Assembly: GCA_009914755.4 (NCBI GenBank)
Contig: CP068257.2
Span: 39,936,001-40,000,000, forward strand
DNA length: 64,000 nucleotides
Direction: 5' to 3'
Source of the DNA: the human T2T-CHM13v2.0 reference genome, Homo sapiens
Positions 20,558 through 62,320 of this stretch are shown here, one piece after another (the first letter of the stretch is position 1; every line of letters starts with the position of its first letter). The position numbers and the translations under genes are program-made. The notes under the pieces were generated by a model. That model had not been told where the DNA came from. It was given only the letters and a program-made list of their open reading frames with translations, and did not search any database.

Positions 20558-20770
20558 AATGGATGGATGGATGGATGGGTGGGTGGATGGATGAATGGAT
20601 GGATGGATGGATGGATGGATGGATGGATGGATGGATGGATGGGTGGGTAGATGGATGGATGGGTGGATGGGTGGATGGATGGATGGATGGATGGATGGAT
20701 GGATGGATGGATGGGTGGGTGGGTGGATGGAAGGATGGATGGATGGATGGGTGAATGGATGGATGGATTC
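20558..20770. repeat. (GGAT)n microsatellite, ~53 units with GGGT/GAAT variants
   Basis: gaatggatggatggatggatgggtgggtggatgg... The 207/103/94/77-aa ORFs ([10 protein letters not shown].. and MDGWMDGW..) are its six-frame translations. Confidence 0.95.
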
Positions 20771-37315: not shown

Positions 37316-38715
37316 GGCAGAGTTTGATACACACAACACACACATGCCACACACACCACACACATATACACACACATCACACATATACACACACACCACA
37401 TACCACACACACCACGCATATACACACACACCACACACCACACATATACACACACACCACATACTACACACACCACACATACACACACACCACATACCAC
37501 ACACACCACACATATACACACACACCACATACCACACACATACACACTCCACACACGTATACACAGACCCCACACATGCCACACACATGCCACACACCAC
37601 ACGCACACCCCACACACACACCACATACCACACACACCACACATATACACACACTACATACCACACACATACACCCTCCACACACATATACACACACCCT
37701 ACGCCACACACACCACACATGCCACTCACACCACATAACACACACACACCCCCACACACACACCACATACCACACACACCACACATATACACACACACCA
37801 TATACCACACACATACACCCCCCACACACATATACATACACCCCATGCCACACACACACCACACTTGCCACACACATGCCATACACCACACACACACATA
37901 TCACACACCACACACATATACACACACACCACACATATACACACACACCACATACCACAAACGTACACCCCCACATATACACACACCCCACACTACACAC
38001 ACACCCACACACCACACATACCACACACATGCTGCACACCACACACACGCAGCCCCCCCCACACACCACACAGGCACACACATCCCACACACACACACAC
38101 CACACACTCCAGACACCCCTCACACACATACACACACCGTACACATACCACACACAAACACCCATATCACACACACACACACACACTGCACACAAACCAC
38201 ACACCCTCACCATACACAAACACACATGTGCCACACACACCACACTCACACACAAACACCACACATACAAACCACACACATGCACGCCATACACACAACC
38301 CACAGGCACATACAGACACACCACACATGCACACACCACACAACACACACAAACACCATGTACACTACACGCACATATCCCAGACATACCACATATAAAC
38401 ACAGCACACACACCACACATGCACACCCCACATACACACATACCATACACACACCACATGCACACATGCTCCCCACACAGACACACATACAATACAACTC
38501 ACACACAACATACACAACACAACACACACACACCCTCACATACACCATACACACATACCACACACACCCCGTGCATACACACATTACACTTGTGCACTAC
38601 ACCCACACACATACACATCCATACACACAAACATATGACATGTACACATAACCACACGAACCTTACACCCACATCCCACACACATGCCACACACACCACA
38701 CACACGCGTGTGAAA
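37316..38715. repeat. ~1.4-kb CA-rich composite array (imperfect (CA)n interleaved with ACAT/CCAC motifs) with ~135-bp higher-order periodicity
   Basis: The plus strand is almost entirely C/A with scattered T and G. The unit accacataccacacacaccacacatatacacacac..cataccacacacatacacc.tccacacacatatacacacaccc.a.gccacacaca recurs at about 37480, 37610 and 37745. The 471/435/342/194/177-aa ORFs here are stop-free low-complexity artefacts. Confidence 0.9.
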
Positions 38716-39632: not shown

Positions 39633-41620
39633 TTTGCTGTATCCCAGAGGTTTTGACAGGTTGTGTCACTATTATTGTTCAGTTCAAAAAATGTTTTGAT
39701 TTCTATCTTCATATCATTGTTGACCCAATGTTCATTCAGGAGCAGGTTATTTAATTTGCATGTATTTGCATGGTTTTGAGGGTTCCTTTTGGAGTTGATT
39801 TCCAATTTTATTCCACTGTGGTCTGAGAAATTGCTTGATATAATTTCAATTTTCTTAAATTTACTGAGACTTGTTTTGTGGCCTACCATATGGTTTATCT
39901 GGAGAATGTCCCATATGCTGATGAATAGAATGTATATGCTGCAGTGATAGAATGTTCTCTAAATATCTGATAGATCCATTTGTTGTAGGGTATAGTTTGA
40001 GTCCATTGTTTCTTTGTTGACTTTCTGTCTTGATGACCTGTCTAGTACTGTCAGTGGAGTATTCAAGTTCCCCACTATTACTGTGTTGCTGTCTATCTCA
40101 TTTCTTAGGTCTAGTAGTAATTGTTTTATAAACTTGGAACCTCCAGCTTTAGGTGCCTATATATTTAGAATTGTGATATTTTCCTGTTGGACTAGTTCTT
40201 TTATCATTATGTAATGTCCCTCTTTGTCTTTTTTAACTGCTGTTGCCTTAAAGTGTGTTTTGTCTGATATAAGAATAGCTACTCCTGCTCATTTTGGGTG
40301 TCCATTTGCATGGAATATGTTTTTCCACCCCTTTACCTTAAGTTTATGTGAGTCCTTATGTGTTAGGTGAGTCTCCTGAAGACAGAAGAAACTTGGTTGG
40401 TGAATTCTTATCCATTCTGCCATTCTGTATCTGTTAAGTGGAGCATTTAGACTAGCATTTACATTCAGTGTTAGTTTTGAGATGTGAGGTACTGTTCAAT
40501 TCATCATGCTATTTGTTGCCTGAATGCCTTGGTTTTTTTCCATTGGGTTAGTGTTACATAGGTCCTGTGAGATTTTTTTTAAGGAGGTTCTATTTTGGTG
40601 TATTTTGAGGATTTGTTTCAAGATTTAGAGCCCCTTTTAGCAGTTTTTGTAGTGCTGGCTTAGTGGTGAATTCTCTCAGCATTTGCTGGAGAAGACTGTA
40701 TCTTTCCTTCATTTATGAAGCTTAGTTTTGCTGGATACAAAATTCTTGGCTGATAATTGTTTTGTTTAAGGAGGCTACAGATAGGACCCCAATCCCTTCT
40801 AGCTTGTAGGGTTTCTGCTGAGAAATCTGCTGTTAATCTGATAGGTTTTCCTTTATAAGTTATCTGATGCTTTTGCCTCACAGCTCGTAAGATTCTTCCC
40901 TTCATCTTGACTTTAAATAACCTGATGACTATAGGCCTAGGTGATGAACTTTTTACAATGTATTTTCCAGGTGTTATTTGAGCTTCTTGTATTTGAATGT
41001 CTAAATCCCTAGAAAGGTCAGGGAAGTTTTCCTCTATTATTCCCTCAAATAAGTTTTCCAAACTTTTAGATTTCTCTTCTTCCTTGGGAACATCAATTAT
41101 TCTTAGGGTTGGGCATTTAACATAGTCCCAAACTTCTTGGAGTCTTTGTTCAATTTTTTTATTCTTTTTTATTTGTCTTTGACAAATTGGGTTAATTCAA
41201 AAGCCTTGTCTTCAAGCTCTAAGGTTCTTTCTTCTGCTTGTTCAATTCTATTGCTGAGACTTCCCACTGTATTTTGCATTTCTCTAAGTGTGTCCTTGAT
41301 TTCCAGAAGTTGTGACTGTTTTTTATTTACACTATCTATTTGACTGAAGAATTTTCCTCTCATGTCCTGTATCATGTTTTCAATTTCTTTAAGTTAGACT
41401 TCACTTTTCCTTGGTGCCTCCTTGATTAGCTTATAATCGACCTTCTGAATTCTTTTTCCGGCAATTCAGAGATATCTTCTTGGTTTGAATCCATTGTTGG
41501 TGAGCTGGTATAACCTTCTGGAGGTGTTAAGTAAACTTGTTTTGTCATATTAAGGGAGGAGACCACCCCTCATATTGTCTTATGCCCAATTTCCGCCTCC
41601 AAAGAAAGAAGAAGTAAAAA
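39633..41620 (-). mobile_element. LINE-1 (L1PB/L1MA-age) internal fragment, antisense: ORF2 endonuclease domain to about aa 270, inter-ORF region, ORF1, start of 5' region. The 3' two-thirds of the element is missing
   Basis: Minus-strand ORF 40660-41061 encodes IIEENFPDLSRDLDIQIQEAQITPGKYIVKSSSPRPIVIRLFKVKMKGRILRAVRQKHQITYKGKPIRLTADFSAETLQARRDWGPICSLLKQNNYQPRILYPAKLSFINEGKIQS, about 65% identical to the L1HS ORF1p C-terminus by eye. ORF 41169-41375 encodes the ORF1 coiled-coil region. ORF 39530-39889 encodes [66 protein letters not shown], matching the end of the L1 ORF2 endonuclease domain. Confidence 0.85.
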
Positions 41621-49095: not shown

Positions 49096-50682
49096 AAAAA
49101 GGTTTTGTCTCGAGGTTCCCCACGGCTCACGTCTGCTCCCCTGACGTTTCAGGCTGGTGTTTCTGATCCTTTTCCTGATATTCTAAGATGTCTGACAGGT
49201 GTGGACTTTGACTGCTTAGGTCCAATGACCCCAACACTGGGTATAGACGGGATTCCCTGAAGCGGCTTGTCTGTCCTCCTTTTCTCCGGCGGGCTCCAGC
49301 TCCCTTCTGGGTGAAATCCTGGCATCTCCATCGTGCTGTCTCTCTGGAGCTATCAACAAACAGCTCTTGATTAATAGCTGTGGCCACAATAACCTTATTT
49401 CCACAGAGACAAGGACAGAGCTGCCGGCTCCACACCAACACTGTCAGCCGGGTGTGTGCTTTGGTATCAGGTCTCACCCACCGAGTTGCTGGGGTTGAGT
49501 TGTGTCTCCAAAAAGATGTGTTCAAGTTCCAACCCCTGGCGCTGTGCATATGACTTTATTGGAAACAGGATCTTCGCATATATATTCAAGGTAAACTGCA
49601 GTGAGACTGGATTAAGGCAGGCCCTGGTTCAGGATGACTGCCGTCCTTATAGGAAGAAGGAAATCTGGACAGAAACACACAGGGAGAGGCCGTTTGAAGA
49701 TGGAGGCAGAAGCTAGGGTGGTGTGGCCACAAGCCAAGGGGCACCGAGAAGCTGGAAGCAGCAGGAAGGACCCTCCCTCCAGTTTCAGAGCGAGCATGAC
49801 CCTGCGGACACTTACATCTCAAGCTTGTGGCCCCCACACCAGGAATAAATGTCTGTTGTTTTCAGCTGCTCAGTGCATGGTGTTATATTTGTTACAACAG
49901 CCTCGGGAAATTCACACTGGGGTGCTAAAGAGGGAATCTGGGAGCAGCCACTCTGTGACTGCATGCCCTTAACCTAGGCAGTGGGAACCTGACTCCTATT
50001 CTCACACTTCTAATAAAGACATACCCAAGGCTGGGTAATTGATAAAGAAAAGAAGTTTAATGGACTCACAGTTCAACATGGCTGGTGAGGCCTCATAATC
50101 ATGGTAGAAGGTAAAGGAGGAGCAAAAAGGCACGTCTTACATGGTGGCAGGCAAGAGTGCGTGTTCAGGGGAACTGCCCTTTATAAAACCATCAGATCTC
50201 ATGAGACTTATTCACCATCACAAGAACAGCACGGGAAAAACCCACCTCCATGAGTCAATGACCTCCCATCAGGTCCCTCCTACAACACATGGGGATTACT
50301 ACAATTAGAGGTGAGATTTGGGATTTGGGTTGGAACCCAGACCCCTGCCTTTTGGGTCTCCTGGCTCTTGGAGGGACAGAGGAGAGTGAAATTCATTGGT
50401 CAAGAGTGAACTCCTCAGGGTGCTCCTTCTGGGAACTCCAGCAGGGTGGGCCTGGGAGGGGTCTCCCATCTTCCTTCCTCCCAACTCGGTCAACAGCAGT
50501 GCAGTTACTCACCCTCCTACCTTCAACAACTTCTCTCCACTCATCAGAGCAAGCCTGTGGAGCAAGCAGGGACTAGGGTCCCTGCATCTCTGGGCACTGA
50601 CCCCTGCAGACCCCAGACAAAGTCTCCATGGCTCAACACCAGCAGAACAAGTCCAAGAAAGAGCAGCTTCATCAGGGAGTGG

Positions 50683-50968: not shown

Positions 50969-53812
50969 TCCTGTGTACTAAGGCACCTCCTTCCCAGGCC
51001 CCAGCTGCCCCGCCTTCATGTCCCACTAGGAACCCACAAGGACAGGATCCTAGACCGTGATGCACTCTGGGATAGGATTCAAACTCACACCTCGACTCAG
51101 GGTCAGGGTGGAGACCCACTGTTGCCATGCCTAGGCCGCAGGAACATGACACACAATGCTGGTTCTGCCCCAGGATGACAGCCTGGGACGTTCCTGGAGT
51201 TTGTGCTTTCTGGGTTGGAGGTGGGCGTGGTCGTTGTCTTGGTGTCCCATGCAGCCCTGGGGTATGACAGGAGGAAGGAGAAGATGAAGAGATGACCCTC
51301 ACCAGGGGTGCCCTCTGGGTACCAAGGTCATCTCCAACCCCAACATGTTTTCTTACCTTCGCCAGTCTAGACTTGCCCTCCATGGGTGTCAGTGGGCACC
51401 TACAGTGCAGAGACAGAGGTCAGAGGTTCCCCAGAGCCTAACAGATGGCCAAGGGCATCTCCTTGTCCTGCAGTTACTGTCTGTCAGAGGCTGAATAATG
51501 GCTGCCAAAAGATAGTCACATCTGGATACCTGGAACTGTGAATGTGATGTGACATGGCAAAAAAAAAAAAGACTTTGCAGATGTGATTGAGTTAAAGATT
51601 TTAAGGTGGGGAAATTATCCCGGATTAGCCAGGTGGGCCCTAAATGGCATTGCAAGAGACCATGTGAGAGGAAGGCAGAGGAAGACTTCACTGCAGAAGA
51701 GGAGACAGCGTGGCCATGGAGGCAGAGATGAGGGCAGTGCAGCCACAAGCCCTGGAGAACACTGGTAGCCACCACAAGCTGGGAGGTGTAGGGAAGGACC
51801 TTCCCCAGAGCATCCAGAGGGACCGGCCCTGCCCACACCCTGGTTTCAGCCCAGTGAAACTGACTGTGGACGTCTGGCCTCTAGAACTGTGAGGGAATCC
51901 GTTTCTACTGTTTTAAACCACCCGTTTTGTGGTCCTTTGTCACCGCTGCTGTAGGGAACTCCTACACCCTCTCCCATCTGGTGGCTGCGAGCCAGCAGAG
52001 CTTAGACCTGCACATGAGGCTCTCCGAGTGCACAGCCTGGGGGAGAGCCCCACCGACAGAACCGCCGCTGCCATGTCAACCTCTTGGCTTTCTGGCTCCA
52101 AATTCTGTCTCTCGGCTCTTACTTGTTGAACCAGAGCAAGAAACACAAAGAGAAAACTGACTTCTAAAACATCTGCATCCGTGTGAGGCAGGCAGACCCT
52201 TGTACTTGTAACTAACAGAAGAACAGATCCCCAGATGGGGAAAGGACTGATTTATCTGAGACGCTCGGGTGGTCGCCAATGCTAACACCGGTGCACTTCC
52301 TCCTGGCATTGTGCAATGTGTTTGTCTTGCGCTTGTGGTTTGTGATGCCTGTGTGCAGGGAGGAGCCCAGACAGGGCACATGGTCATGAGAGTGCCTCGA
52401 GAGGTGGCTTGGTCATTGTTTGGCATTTTGTCACCTGTAAACCCAGGCCAAGAGTCAACGTTGGCTGGGTGGCAATGGGGTTGTTATCAAGAATACTGAC
52501 ATGGTTTGGCTCTGTGTCCCCACCCAAATCTCACCTTGTAGCTCCCATAATTCCCACATGTTGTGGGAGGGGCCCGGTGAAAGATGATTGAATCATGGGG
52601 GCGGGTCTTTCCTGTGCGGTTCTTATGATAGTGAATGGGTCTCATGAGATCTGATGGGTTTAAAAATGGGAGTTTCTCTGCACAAGCACTCTCTTTGCCT
52701 GCTGCCATCTACATAAGATGTGACTTGCTCCTCCTTGCCTTCCACCATGATTGTGAGGACTCCCCAGACATGTGGACTGTAAGTCCAATAAACCTCTTTC
52801 TTTTATAAATTGCCCAGTCTGGGGTATGTCTTTATCAGCAGCGAGAAAACTGACAAATACAAATACCAAGAGTAGCAGCATATCTCCAGAGGGTAGCAGT
52901 GTCCAGAATGTGCAAATGGAGTTAGCCTCAGGCCATATCGCCACCTCCACAGCCCAGCATCAGGGAACCACATCTTGGCACCTGCCATTTCCGCAGTGAG
53001 AACATCCTTCATCCAGGTTGTTATGTCACCAGCGTCTCCTTCCTTCATAATTGCACCCAATACCACCTTCTTCAGGAAGCCCACTTAGAGCAAACCCCTG
53101 CATTTTGAGAAAGGCCAAGATCATGGCTAGTGATCAGATTGAGCCTATGGCATCAAGAGGATGGGGGGTTAGCACCAGGCTCTGCCCTCGTCAGTCCCTT
53201 TACCTTCTCTGTGCTACTAGATGTGAGCAGGAAGACCAACAGGATGCACGTCCTGGAGTCAGATGTAATTCACAGAAGGCCTTGAGCACAGGGCTGGCAA
53301 ACAAGCAGTGCACAGTGGGCATCAGTCATCACCGCTGTGTCCAGCTAACTCCACCCTGAATACTCAGGGCTGGCTGGGTAGCCTCTGGGATGACCCTCGG
53401 TGATCGCCTCTCGAAATTTGCTTCCTTGTGTGACTCCTTCTTCATGAGTGGGGCTGGACCTGGTGACTTGCTTCTGATGGACAGAATGCATCAAGAGTAA
53501 TGGAACATCTCTGCTCTAGGTGTCAAAAACCTCTGACTTCCTTCTTGCGGGACTCTCTCTGTATGGCCTTCTCAGCTTGCTCACTTTGGTAAAGCAACAA
53601 GCTGTGTTAGATCCACATGTCGAGGAACTACACAGACAGTCTCTGGCTAACAGCCAGCAAGGAACTGAGACCCTCAGGCTCATAGAACTGGATCCTGCCA
53701 GCAACCACTAAGGAGCCTGCAGAGGGCCCCTGCTTGCTTAAAACTTCAGAAGACTGAGGCCACCACCCACTCCCTGGCTTCAACCTGGAGAGAGGCCCTG
53801 AAGAAGATTCAG

Positions 53813-54135
53813 CCGAAGCCGGACACTGTGGCTCATGTCTGTCATCCAAGCACTTTGGGAGGCCAGGGCGGGGAGATTGCTTGGGTCTGGTGCAACATGG
53901 CGAATCGCCATCTCTACAAAAAAATACAAAAATTAGCCAGGCGTGGTGGTGCACACCTGTAGTCCCAGCTACTCGGGAGGCTGAGGTCCCAGCCGAATCC
54001 CAGCTACTCGGGAGGCGGATCCCTTGTTCAAAAAGCATGAAGACTTTACAGATGGCGACAGCCTCTCGTTGAGCCCAGGAAGAGTCATCTGAGCCGGGGA
54101 GGTGGAGGTTGCATTGGGCCAAGACTGAGCTGAGG
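53813..54135 (+). mobile_element. Alu SINE, sense, carrying a ~90-bp internal insertion (partial Alu self-duplication plus ~62 bp of non-Alu sequence) in its right arm
   Basis: gccggacactgtggctcatgtctgtcatccaagcactttgggaggccagggcggggagattgcttgggtctggtgcaacatggcgaatcgccatctctac... then agctactcgggaggctgagg | tcccagccgaatcccagctactcgggaggcggatcccttgttcaaaaagcatgaagactttacagatggcgacagcctctcgttgagcc | caggaagagtcatctgagccggggaggtggaggttgcattgggccaag. Confidence 0.85.
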
Positions 54136-55774: not shown

Positions 55775-55852
55775 GGGCACGTCGGTGAGAGAGAGGGGGT
55801 GAGAGGGAGGGGTGGGCACGTCGGTGAGAGGGAGGGGGTGAGAGGGAGGGGT
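55775..55852. repeat. 39-bp tandem duplication (2 copies)
   Basis: gggcacgtcggtgagagagagggggtgagagggaggggtg | ggcacgtcggtgagagggagggggtgagagggaggggtg. Confidence 0.9.
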
Positions 55853-55940
55853 GACCTCCTCCGGGAAGCTTCCTTTCTAGGGAGATGCAGGGAATTGGGG
55901 GTGGGCAATACTCAGAGATCATCAAAATATACCACTAAGT

Positions 55941-56491: not shown

Positions 56492-57629
<1,138 letters not shown>

Positions 57630-58354
57630 TAATGTGCCCAGCAGCAAGGCTTGAGGGAGGCATGTCCCACCCAGGAGGATGAAAGCCCAGTCATCCTGCT
57701 GATGTGTCACAGGGAATCTGAGCATTTCCATCCCCAGCTCCCTGCTTTCCGGTCTGCAGTCCCCTCCCTGGGAGCTAGGGCAACCTTCCTTCTTTCTCGT
57801 CTCCTCCCACCCGACCAGGGTCCTGGCTTCTGAGTGAGGGAAGCTCTAGAATCCCTTTAGGCCAGTGCGGGACGAGCCATATGATTGATTCAAGGGGACC
57901 CAGTTCAACGCGAACATGCGGGTCCCTTGTTCAAAAAGCATCAAGACTTTGTCAACGGCAGCAGCCTCGCGTTGAGCCCAGTGCCCAGTGCCGGCTCCCA
58001 GCCCAGGAGGTTGACCTCAGGCCAGGAGCTGACCCTAAAGGAACAGGGAAGAGAGGGATTCAGCTGCCTTGGGGACTGGGGTGTCCCAAACGAGTGAAGA
58101 CCAGCTGTGCCTGCCAGTTCAGAGCAGGCACAGCATAATCGCCCCGGGAGTGGAGGCCGCAGCAGGATTTGGACCGGGTCTGGAGGTTGTTTTCCTCCAT
58201 CTGCAAATGAGGAATGTGAGGCCAAGGATAAAGTTAAGTTGGTGCAAAAGTCATTGTGGTTTTTGCATTAACGTAATAAAAGCTACAGCCATCAATTGTT
58301 GACAGCCAGGCCTCATGTTTTCTTTGTAACCCACAACCCTATTGAGGGCTGCTC

Positions 58355-61250: not shown

Positions 61251-62320
61251 TTAACGCCCACTAATGTACCAAAGACAAAGAGCCATGAGCGTATCTAGGG
61301 AGAACCGAGCGTGTCCGTCCGTGCTCGCACTGCTATAAAGAAATACCTGAGACTGGATAGTTTATAAAGAAAAGAGGTTTCATGGGCTCACGGTTCCACA
61401 GGCTGTACGGGAAGCATGGCAGCCTCTGCTCAGCTTCTGCGGAGGCCTCAGGAAACTGACAATCATGGCAGAAGGCAAAGGGGACCCTGTACGTCACATG
61501 ACAGGGAAGGAGAAAGAGAGAGCAGGGGCAGGTGCCACACCCTTTTAAACAACCAGATCTCAGGAGAACTCTGTCACGAGAGCAGCACTTGGGGATGTTG
61601 CTAACCCTTTCATGGGAAACCACCCTCTCGATCCAATCACCTCCCACCAGGCCCCACCTCCAACACTGGGATTACAATTCAACATGAGATTTGGGCAGGA
61701 CACAGATCCAAACCATATCACTGAGCTAGTCCAACATGCTCAATGACTGATGTTGAAACCAGCCAGGCAGAAGCAACTCACTCTAAGTCCCACCGTGGGT
61801 TCTAGAACTCTGGTCTCTCGATGCTGGTCCACACTGTAATATACTGGGAAAAAAAGGAACACTGGGATGAATATCTGGAAGATCTGAGTTAAAGTCATTT
61901 ATTCCTTTTTTCAGCACAAAGGTGACCTTCATGCAATGGTATAGGATTTAAATATGGGGAGAAGGATATGATGGTAAATTTCATGGCCGTTTCTATCCAG
62001 AACTATTTTTCTGGGCACCTGTTATTCCTTGGTGGAGTGGTTGTCTTTCTAGGTCAGGAAGAGAGAACGTGGCCCAGCCAGGCCCAGAGCATGGCTGTGC
62101 TGCCAGATCCTGGGCCACGAGCCTCTTGTGGCACCTTGTATGTGAGACGTGGCTGGTCTGATGGAAATGTGCCTTCGGTGTGAGGTGCACACTGGCTTCT
62201 AAAGGCTTAGTGCAGAACAAAGGCCGTCAAATGTCTCATTAATAGTTTCTATATTGTTACATGTTGAGATCATGATATTTTGGATATATACGGTTAAATA
62301 AAATACATCATTCAAGTTAA

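What the first reader, a model, noticed from the sequence alone, without database searches (positions are those of the whole stretch)
54018..54079. An unexplained ~62-bp non-Alu segment is shared between an Alu-internal insertion and a site 3.9 kb downstream
gatcccttgttcaaaaagcatgaagactttacagatggcgacagcctctcgttgagcccagg (54018-54079) lies inside the right arm of the Alu at 53813-54135, next to a partial Alu self-duplication. It recurs as ggtcccttgttcaaaaagcatcaagactttgtcaacggcagcagcctcgcgttgagcccag at 57920-57980, in unique-looking context, at about 85% identity by eye. It does not match the 7SL S-domain, which I checked mentally because Alu derives from 7SL. Candidate explanations are a gene-conversion or template-switch event copying local sequence into the Alu, or an unrecognised low-copy repeat.
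Basis: seen in the sequence. Interest (0 to 1): 0.5.

Follow-up and report, generated by a model that had tools for sequence, protein, structure and literature searches.

The report
Local sequence patch copied into Alu
A 64-base stretch lying 3.9 kb downstream was most likely copied into the middle of an old Alu repeat during error-prone DNA repair or replication, which is an ordinary mutational scar and not a new kind of element.

Summary
Window 54015-54078 and 57918-57981 share 64 ungapped bases on the same strand, with 54/64 identical. The local score is 44, against 11±1.2 for shuffles. There are only two copies in the 64 kb, and the flanks show no similarity.

Site A is an 89-nt insertion (53987-54075) in the right arm of an old, 3'-truncated Alu. 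Removing it restores one colinear Alu (consensus 2-235). The insertion is a patchwork:
- an 11-nt filler;
- an exact 19-nt copy of the Alu's own 53963-53981;
- the site-B-like stretch, joined through 2-nt (GC) and 3-nt (CAG) overlaps.

This matches the known signature of microhomology-mediated serial template switching (MMBIR/FoSTeS-type or polymerase-theta templated insertion), with site B as the likely donor. The event appears younger than the Alu.

No RNA family, RNA fold, tRNA, protein homologue or MIR match explains the block.

Not resolved: genome-wide copy number and Dfam identity of the 64-mer, and the state of the site in other primates, because no primate genome could be searched. 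Site B also lies in weakly Alu-like sequence, so its context may not be fully unique.

Verdict: a new instance of a known kind, of low interest.

The parts
53818..53986 (+). Host Alu, 5' part (consensus positions about 2-187): left arm with a 17-19 nt internal deletion, the A-rich linker, and the start of the right arm ending in ...GGGAGGCTGAGG
   Evidence: nhmmer with an HMM built from 23 Alus of this window places HMM 2-218 at 53818-54020, E 5.5e-44. Pairwise alignment to Alu consensi. The Rfam SRP and mir-1268 hits are Alu-derived.
53987..53997 (+). 11-nt filler TCCCAGCCGAA at the left edge of the insertion. It may consist of two abortive local copies: GTCCCAGC matches 53962-53969 and CAGCCGAA matches 53810-53817.
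   Evidence: The 8-mer matches are not significant on their own (26% of shuffles reach them), so the origin of the filler is inferred, not shown.
53998..54016 (+). Exact 19-nt direct duplication of the Alu's own 53963-53981 (TCCCAGCTACTCGGGAGGC)
   Evidence: 19/19 identical. The last two bases (GC) overlap the start of the site-B match.
54015..54078 (+). Copy of site B inside the Alu (64 nt, 84% identical to 57918-57981). Bases 54017-54075 are unique to the B-like patch. GC (54015-54016) and CAG (54076-54078) are junction overlaps.
54076..54124 (+). Host Alu resumes (consensus about 188-235: CAGGAAGAGTCATCTGAGCCGGGGAGGTGGAGGTTGCATTGGGCCAAGA) and is then truncated, with no 3' end or poly-A.
   Evidence: nhmmer places HMM 190-240 at 54079-54129. 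With 53987-54075 removed, the host aligns colinearly to consensus 2-235 with 16.7% mismatch.
57918..57981 (+). Site B, the probable donor of the 64-nt patch, 3,903 nt downstream on the same strand
   Evidence: No Alu HMM hit, no Rfam family, no unusual RNA fold, no tRNA.
57894..57986 (+). Imperfect inverted repeat at site B (arms 57894-57913 and 57967-57986, 15/20 complementary, with an exact 9-nt core TCAACGCGA/TCGCGTTGA). It straddles the 3' edge of the block, as does the 7-nt tandem CCCAGTG CCCAGTG (57977-57990). Both suggest the block is continuous with its flanks at B.
   Evidence: This is weak evidence; its significance was not established.

Best explanation
Site A is an old Alu that later suffered a break or a stalled replication fork in its right arm, between consensus positions 187 and 188. 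The gap was closed by error-prone synthesis that switched templates several times, priming on very short matches.

Inferred order of events, reading left to right:
1. One or two abortive local copies produced the 11-nt filler.
2. A 19-nt copy was made of the Alu sequence lying 35 nt upstream.
3. The synthesis jumped, through a GC overlap, to a site 3.9 kb downstream on the same strand (site B) and copied about 60 nt.
4. It returned to the Alu through a CAG overlap.

The result is an 89-nt patchwork insertion.

Shown: the anatomy, the overlaps, and the colinearity of the Alu once the insertion is removed. Inferred: the direction (B to A), the order of the jumps, and the enzyme system. The system would be an MMBIR/FoSTeS-type replicative template switch or polymerase-theta end joining.

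Nothing suggests that the patch has a function.
For: 1. The shared block is far above chance and occurs only twice in 64 kb.
2. Deleting 53987-54075 leaves one colinear Alu (consensus 2-235), so A is the recipient of an insertion.
3. Both ends of the A/B similarity fall exactly on the mosaic junctions of A, with overlaps of 2 nt (GC) and 3 nt (CAG). Under B-to-A copying this follows automatically. Under A-to-B copying, or two independent repeat fragments, it would be a coincidence.
4. The patch lies next to an exact 19-nt local duplication and a short filler, so more than one template was used. Germline templated insertions with several templates and junction microhomology of 2-12 bp (mean 3.7) are described for human genomes in PMC8421209.
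5. The event looks younger than the Alu. The host Alu is 16.7% diverged (11.7-13.3% at non-CpG sites). Copies made when the Alu inserted should therefore differ by about 24-33%. The 19-nt duplicate has 0 differences (P about 0.005 at 24%). The block differs at 10/64 positions, which may represent only about 4 events.
6. Donor and recipient are 3.9 kb apart in the same orientation, which favours a local DNA-level process.
7. At B an inverted repeat and a 7-nt tandem cross the edge of the block, so the block looks native there.
8. The 3' 25 nt of block B resemble Alu 186-209, the Alu position next to the break. This score is in the top 0.3% of non-Alu 64-mers. Such imperfect homology could have guided the choice of template.
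Against: - No primate genome could be searched. It is therefore unknown whether the 64-mer has other genomic copies that could be the true donor, or whether the insertion is absent from an outgroup.
- Overlaps of 2-3 nt are short and arise by chance fairly often.
- The local matches proposed for the filler and for the divergent core are not significant (P 0.26 and 0.07).
- Sixty nucleotides copied from 3.9 kb away is longer and more distant than typical polymerase-theta insertions.
- The Alu-like ends of the block could instead mean that the block arose inside an Alu and moved to B.
- The age argument rests on very few sites.
Confidence: 0.6

Rival explanations
1. Both blocks are fragments of a third sequence: a catalogued or uncatalogued interspersed or low-copy repeat. 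Site B is then only a paralogue of the real donor, or the two arose independently.
For: This could not be tested. The exact 19-mer scans of the metagenome, prokaryote-genome and viral collections returned only chance hits that do not extend. The viral collection contains no Alu or MADE1 either, so those negatives say nothing about human copy number. Site B lies in sequence that is weakly Alu-like under permissive alignment, ranking first of 455 windows.
Against: - There are only two copies in 64 kb.
- There is no Rfam family.
- An identity of 84-95% is far too high for two random copies of an ancient family. Families young enough for that identity have few enough copies that one lying within 4 kb by chance is unlikely.
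- The copy at A still needs an insertion mechanism into the Alu.
Confidence: 0.2
2. The patch was acquired during retrotransposition. The L1 reverse transcriptase copying the Alu RNA jumped to another RNA, for example a local transcript containing site B, and then jumped back. This would have created a chimeric Alu at the moment of insertion.
For: Template jumps by L1 reverse transcriptase that make chimeric retrocopies are established knowledge (not tested here). The patch has the same orientation as the Alu.
Against: - The 19-nt duplicate is identical to its source although the Alu is 16.7% diverged.
- The block's divergence is lower than expected for an event as old as the Alu.
- An RNA donor could come from anywhere, so a donor only 3.9 kb away is unexpected.
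- The Alu lacks its 3' end and poly-A, so the locus has been rearranged at the DNA level in any case.
Confidence: 0.07
3. The direction was the reverse. The block arose within the Alu at site A, from rearranged Alu pieces plus unknown sequence, and 64 nt of it were later copied to site B.
For: Both ends of the block resemble Alu segments. The 5' 20 nt resemble the Alu 3' terminus (P 0.002-0.008). The 3' 25 nt resemble Alu 186-209.
Against: - It needs an extra unknown source for the central non-Alu bases, plus a second copying event whose ends happen to coincide with A's internal junctions.
- At the three sites where A and B differ within the Alu-like 3' part, B carries the Alu-like base.
- The Alu-tail-like similarity, an inverted repeat and a tandem repeat at B all run across the edges of the block into B's own flanks.
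Confidence: 0.07
4. The block is a functional element, such as a structured small RNA, a coding exon or a regulatory module, present in two copies because it is used twice.
For: Site B has locally raised CpG content (observed/expected 0.6, against 0.15-0.3 nearby). Open reading frames run through it.
Against: - There is no Rfam hit near threshold.
- Folding energies equal those of shuffles on both strands (z -0.1 and -0.2).
- There is no tRNA.
- The three ORFs through site B have no homologue among 5.8 billion proteins at E<=10.
- Copy A has a stop codon in one of the frames that is open at B, and it sits in a decayed, truncated Alu.
Confidence: 0.03

Closest known systems
Germline templated insertions from microhomology-mediated template switching (MMBIR/FoSTeS; 'MMB-TI' of Osia et al. 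2021, PMC8421209)
   Same: The inserted DNA has an identifiable template in cis, and several templates were used in one event. The junctions carry 2-3 nt of microhomology that can be extended if mismatches are allowed. The recipient is otherwise intact. The paper describes such events accumulating as harmless germline variants.
   Different: The main template is 3.9 kb away, whereas the yeast-derived signature uses templates within about 100 bp. The event is old and has since diverged by 16%, so the junctions cannot be read with certainty.
Polymerase-theta-mediated end joining with templated insertions (PMC7165422 and related papers, listed)
   Same: There is iterative, abortive copying of sequence next to the break (a 7-8 nt piece, then 19 nt from 35 nt upstream), with short microhomologies and an error-prone outcome.
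   Different: From general knowledge, polymerase-theta insertions are usually under about 30 nt and copied from very near the break. A 60-nt copy from 3.9 kb away is atypical.
Short template-switch mutations in primate genomes (Löytynoja & Goldman 2017, PMC5453318)
   Same: A replication-linked switch to a nearby template produces a complex local mutation. The clustered differences in the core of the block could be a later event of this type.
   Different: Those events are typically inverted copies over tens of bases. Here the copy is direct and comes from kilobases away. The one inverted 9-mer match found here (53905-53913) is not significant (P 0.07).
Alu-Alu non-allelic gene conversion and Alu/Alu-mediated rearrangement
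   Same: An Alu is the recipient. The donor region has weak Alu-like stretches in the same orientation, which could have provided imperfect homology.
   Different: Gene conversion replaces sequence in register without changing length. Here 89 nt are added out of register, and the Alu profile HMM does not recognise the donor as an Alu.

Membership tests
Templated insertion by microhomology-mediated template switching (MMBIR/FoSTeS or TMEJ class) | The inserted sequence matches a template elsewhere, usually in cis | tested here: met
   64 nt with 54/64 identical to 57918-57981 on the same strand, 3,903 nt away. Local score 44, against 11±1.2 for shuffles.
Templated insertion by microhomology-mediated template switching (MMBIR/FoSTeS or TMEJ class) | The recipient is colinear once the insertion is removed (a net insertion, not a replacement) | tested here: met
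   Removing 53987-54075 gives an uninterrupted alignment to Alu consensus 2-235. nhmmer splits the Alu at 54020/54079.
Templated insertion by microhomology-mediated template switching (MMBIR/FoSTeS or TMEJ class) | Microhomology at each template-switch junction | tested here: met
   GC (54015-54016) is shared by the 19-nt duplicate and the B match. CAG (54076-78) is shared by the B match and the resumed Alu. These overlaps are short, so each is weak on its own.
Templated insertion by microhomology-mediated template switching (MMBIR/FoSTeS or TMEJ class) | More than one template used in a single event (a feature of complex events) | tested here: met
   An exact 19-nt copy of 53963-53981 lies directly beside the B-derived patch. 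The proposed templates for the 11-nt filler are not significant.
Templated insertion by microhomology-mediated template switching (MMBIR/FoSTeS or TMEJ class) | An ancestral or orthologous allele lacks the insertion while the donor site is present | not testable with these tools
   No primate genomes were available. ORFs across site B have no entries in the protein collection, so orthologous loci could not be fetched.
Interspersed repeat family (Dfam/Repbase entry) | Many dispersed genomic copies that match a family consensus | not testable with these tools
   There are only 2 copies in this 64 kb. The collection scans gave chance hits only and cannot be calibrated for human DNA.
Alu-Alu gene conversion | In-register replacement between two recognisable Alus, without length change | tested here: not met
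   There is a net gain of 89 nt, placed out of register. The donor region gives no hit to the Alu HMM at E<=100.
7SL/SRP RNA-derived sequence (S domain) or another Rfam RNA family | A significant match to a covariance model or to the sequence | tested here: not met
   The SRP hit at A ends at 54025. Nothing at B scores better than E about 1 or 16 bits. The block's best score against 7SL is within the shuffle range. Fold z-scores are about 0.
Chimeric retrocopy made by an L1 reverse-transcriptase template jump | The patch is the same age as the retrotransposition event, and the element has a poly-A tail and target-site duplications | tested here: inconclusive
   The Alu has no 3' end or poly-A. 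The 19-nt duplicate has 0 differences, against about 5 expected if it were as old as the Alu. The number of sites is small.

The most novel reading that the evidence does not exclude
The 64-mer is not a one-off scar. It would instead be a module copied repeatedly: an unrecognised low-copy element that tends to land in Alu right arms, or a CpG-rich functional element at site B whose copy gave this Alu a new regulatory or RNA-level property.
Probability: 0.05. Interest if true: 0.4.

Novelty: new member of a known kind. Interest (0 to 1): 0.15.

Why it matters
The locus is a clean, readable fossil of a multi-step templated insertion inside a repeat whose original sequence is known from the Alu consensus. 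That makes the junctions unusually easy to interpret, so it could serve as a worked example of how complex indels arise in primate genomes. It could also illustrate how Alu elements acquire foreign sequence. It opens no new question. If the 64-mer proves to be a catalogued repeat, even that value is lost.

Tried and rejected
- **Exact 19-mer scans.** The metagenome, prokaryote-genome and viral collections gave 15 hits. None extends beyond the 19-mer, so all are chance.
- **Calibration of those scans.** The viral collection contains no Alu or MADE1 exact words. Negative scans therefore say nothing about human copy number.
- **Protein route to orthologues.** A query joining the three ORFs through site B found no homologue at E<=10. 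Orthologous primate loci could not be retrieved this way.
- **Exon search.** I listed all non-Alu ORFs of at least 60 aa to look for an exon that would give access to annotated primate loci. I abandoned this: nothing in the second half (41.4-64 kb), the only part checked by eye, looked coding, and the estimated chance of success was low.
- **Structured RNA.** Rfam at gathering and at permissive thresholds, RNA folding on both strands, and tRNA search all found nothing at either block.
- **Wider duplication.** The flanks are not similar.
- **Extra templates.** Matches for the filler and the divergent core are not significant.
- **Is site B an Alu relic?** nhmmer finds nothing. Permissive alignment ranks the region first of 455 windows, but only 4 score points above the next one. 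This is left unresolved.
- **Literature.** A full-text search for the sequence itself found no paper.

Full report
**1. The observation**

Both stretches are present as described. MAFFT, the repeat finder and a Smith-Waterman alignment agree on one ungapped 64-nt block. It spans 54015-54078 and 57918-57981, on the same strand, 3,903 nt apart, with 54/64 identical.

- The local score is 44. Two hundred shuffled versions of the 64-mer reach 11.0±1.2, with a maximum of 15.
- Sub-patterns of 19 and 20 nt occur only at these two places even with three mismatches allowed. blastn-short finds no third copy in the 64 kb.
- The 100-200 nt on either side of the block are not significantly similar (z 0.8-2.1). 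The shared segment is therefore short and sharply bounded.
- The ten differences are uneven. Seven lie in an 11-nt core, while the flanking 33 and 20 nt are 94-95% identical. Seven are transitions, and several involve CpG sites.

**2. Site A**

The window is from an Alu-rich primate genome: 27 Alu-like intervals, with subfamilies from AluJ-like to AluY-like.

A profile HMM built from 23 Alus of this window matches 53818-54020 (HMM 2-218, E 5.5e-44) and 54079-54129 (HMM 190-240). The Alu is therefore interrupted exactly where the block lies. If 53987-54075 (89 nt) is removed, the remainder aligns without a break to Alu consensus positions 2-235. It shows 16.7% mismatch (11.7-13.3% outside CpG), which makes it one of the oldest Alus in the window.

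The element also lacks 17-19 nt of its left arm and everything beyond consensus position about 236, including the poly-A tail.

The 89-nt insertion has three parts:

| Coordinates | Content |
|---|---|
| 53987-53997 | TCCCAGCCGAA, an 11-nt filler |
| 53998-54016 | an exact copy of the Alu's own 53963-53981 (19/19) |
| 54015-54078 | the site-B-like stretch |

The last two bases of the duplicate (GC) are also the first two bases of the B match. The last three bases of the B match (CAG) are also the first three bases of the resumed Alu (consensus ...GAGG|CAGGAG...).

The filler contains two 8-mers found nearby: GTCCCAGC at 53962-53969 and CAGCCGAA at 53810-53817. Matches of that length appear in 26% of shuffles, so I treat them only as a possibility.

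**3. Site B**

Several searches found nothing that explains the block:

- No Rfam family reaches a meaningful score in a 5-kb scan or a 221-nt scan.
- Folding energies on both strands equal those of shuffled sequence.
- There is no tRNA.
- The three ORFs that run through the site have no homologue at E<=10 in the 5.8-billion-protein collection.
- The MIR and L2 3'-end consensi (from memory) do not match. The same permissive alignment clearly detects real MIRs at about 55.0-55.4 kb, 58.1-58.5 kb, 1.5-2.0 kb and 19.8-20.3 kb.

CpG content is locally raised, with observed/expected about 0.6.

An imperfect inverted repeat (57894-57913 and 57967-57986, 15/20, with an exact 9-nt core) crosses the 3' edge of the block. 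So does a 7-nt tandem (CCCAGTG twice). This suggests the block is continuous with its surroundings at B.

**4. A complication: the block is not cleanly non-Alu**

- Its 3' 25 nt (GGCAGCAGCCTCGCGTTGAGCCCAG) align to Alu consensus 186-209 at 21/24. That score is reached by only 0.3% of non-Alu 64-mers in the window, and two of those five are the block itself. Positions 186-209 lie directly next to the insertion point.
- Its 5' 20 nt resemble the Alu 3' terminus (P 0.002 for B and 0.008 for A). At B that similarity continues upstream of the block.
- Under permissive scoring, 57808-57937 aligns colinearly to an Alu right arm, and 57820-58108 to a whole Alu.
- The 400-nt window around B ranks first of 455 non-Alu windows: 61.8, against a mean of 39.4 with sd 8, and a next-best score of 57.6.
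- Even so, the Alu HMM finds nothing there at E<=100, and the two alignments assign the block to different Alu positions.

I therefore record site B as possibly a very degenerate Alu-like relic, unresolved. If the similarity is real, it offers imperfect homology that could have drawn a broken Alu end to this template.

**5. Mechanism**

The anatomy has these features: a net insertion, more than one template, junction overlaps of 2-3 nt, and a donor in cis in the same orientation. This is the known signature of serial template switching primed on microhomology. Osia et al. (PMC8421209) describe germline templated insertions in human genomes with several templates. In their data, junction microhomology is 2-12 bp (mean 3.7) and grows longer when one mismatch is allowed. 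They propose that harmless events of this kind accumulate over evolution.

Polymerase-theta end joining gives similar but usually shorter and more local insertions (papers listed). I cannot distinguish between the two enzyme systems from sequence alone.

**6. Direction**

B to A is the most economical reading, for four reasons:

- A is demonstrably an insertion.
- The ends of the A/B similarity coincide with A's own mosaic junctions.
- B needs no further unknown source.
- B's local repeats and its Alu-tail-like similarity run across the edges of the block.

At the three positions where A and B differ within the Alu-like 3' part, B carries the Alu-like base.

**7. Age**

Two copies made when the Alu inserted should now differ by about 24-33%. 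The 19-nt duplicate has no difference (P about 0.005 at 24% divergence). The block differs at 10/64 positions. That may represent only four events if the core is counted as one.

On the scale of the other Alus in this window, this suggests an event roughly of AluS-to-AluY age, well after the host Alu arrived. The number of sites is small, so the estimate is rough.

**8. What remains open**

- I could not search a human or primate genome, or Dfam.
- Exact-word scans of the metagenome, prokaryote-genome and viral collections returned only chance matches.
- The viral collection holds no Alu or MADE1 words at all, so these negatives carry no weight for human copy number.
I give it about 0.2.
- A full-text search of the paper library for the sequence itself found nothing.

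**9. Verdict**

The template-switch reading is the best supported, at about 0.6. It is an instance of a known mutational process with no sign of function, so interest is low.

Noticed in passing
window 57619-57716 (-), with 57411-57614 and 57115-57403: There is a U13 snoRNA-like sequence (Rfam snoU13, 50 bits against a gathering score of 46), probably a retro-pseudogene. On its own strand it is followed by an A-rich tail that is now an (AAAG)n microsatellite of about 51 units. An AluSx-like element has inserted into that tail.
   Followed up: partly
window 57760-58160: The region around site B is the most Alu-like of 455 non-Alu 400-nt windows under permissive alignment (61.8, against a mean of 39.4 with sd 8). 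A profile HMM of the window's own Alus nevertheless finds nothing there. It may be a very degenerate 7SL/Alu-related relic, or just GC-rich CCAGG-type composition.
   Followed up: partly
window 54048-54058 versus 57951-57961: Seven of the ten A/B differences cluster in 11 nt. Some are CpG transitions. The A version contains AGATGGCGA, the reverse complement of TCGCCATCT in the host Alu's left arm (53905-53913). This hints at a secondary short inverted template switch, but the match is not significant (P 0.07).
   Followed up: yes
window 53818-54124: Apart from the insertion, the host Alu lacks 17-19 nt of its left arm and everything 3' of consensus position about 236, including the poly-A tail. 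The locus has therefore been rearranged more than once.
   Followed up: partly
window 37329-38567: There is a long degenerate AC-rich simple repeat of about 1.2 kb with extreme strand skew (GC skew about -0.6, AT skew +0.4 to +0.5).
   Followed up: no
window 3038-3676; 20559-20768; 55775-55853: Three tandem repeats: a minisatellite with nested 23/45/68-nt periods (about 28 units of 23 nt), an (ATGG)n run of 52 units, and a 39-nt unit repeated twice at 97% identity.
   Followed up: no
They are probably ancient MIR elements. A weak mir-548/MADE1-like hit lies at 58232-58278.
   Followed up: no
window 40663-41196 (-): The translation of this ORF looks like LINE-1 ORF1 protein. This was recognised by eye and not tested.
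   Followed up: no
window 50002-50298 versus 52548-52846, and 61335-61400: There are inverted copies, 74-145 nt long and 80-82% identical, of a repeat containing ...GGGTAATTGATAAAGAAAAGA.GTTTAATGG.CTCACAGTTC.... A third, direct copy lies near 61.3 kb. It looks like a common interspersed repeat but was not identified.
   Followed up: no
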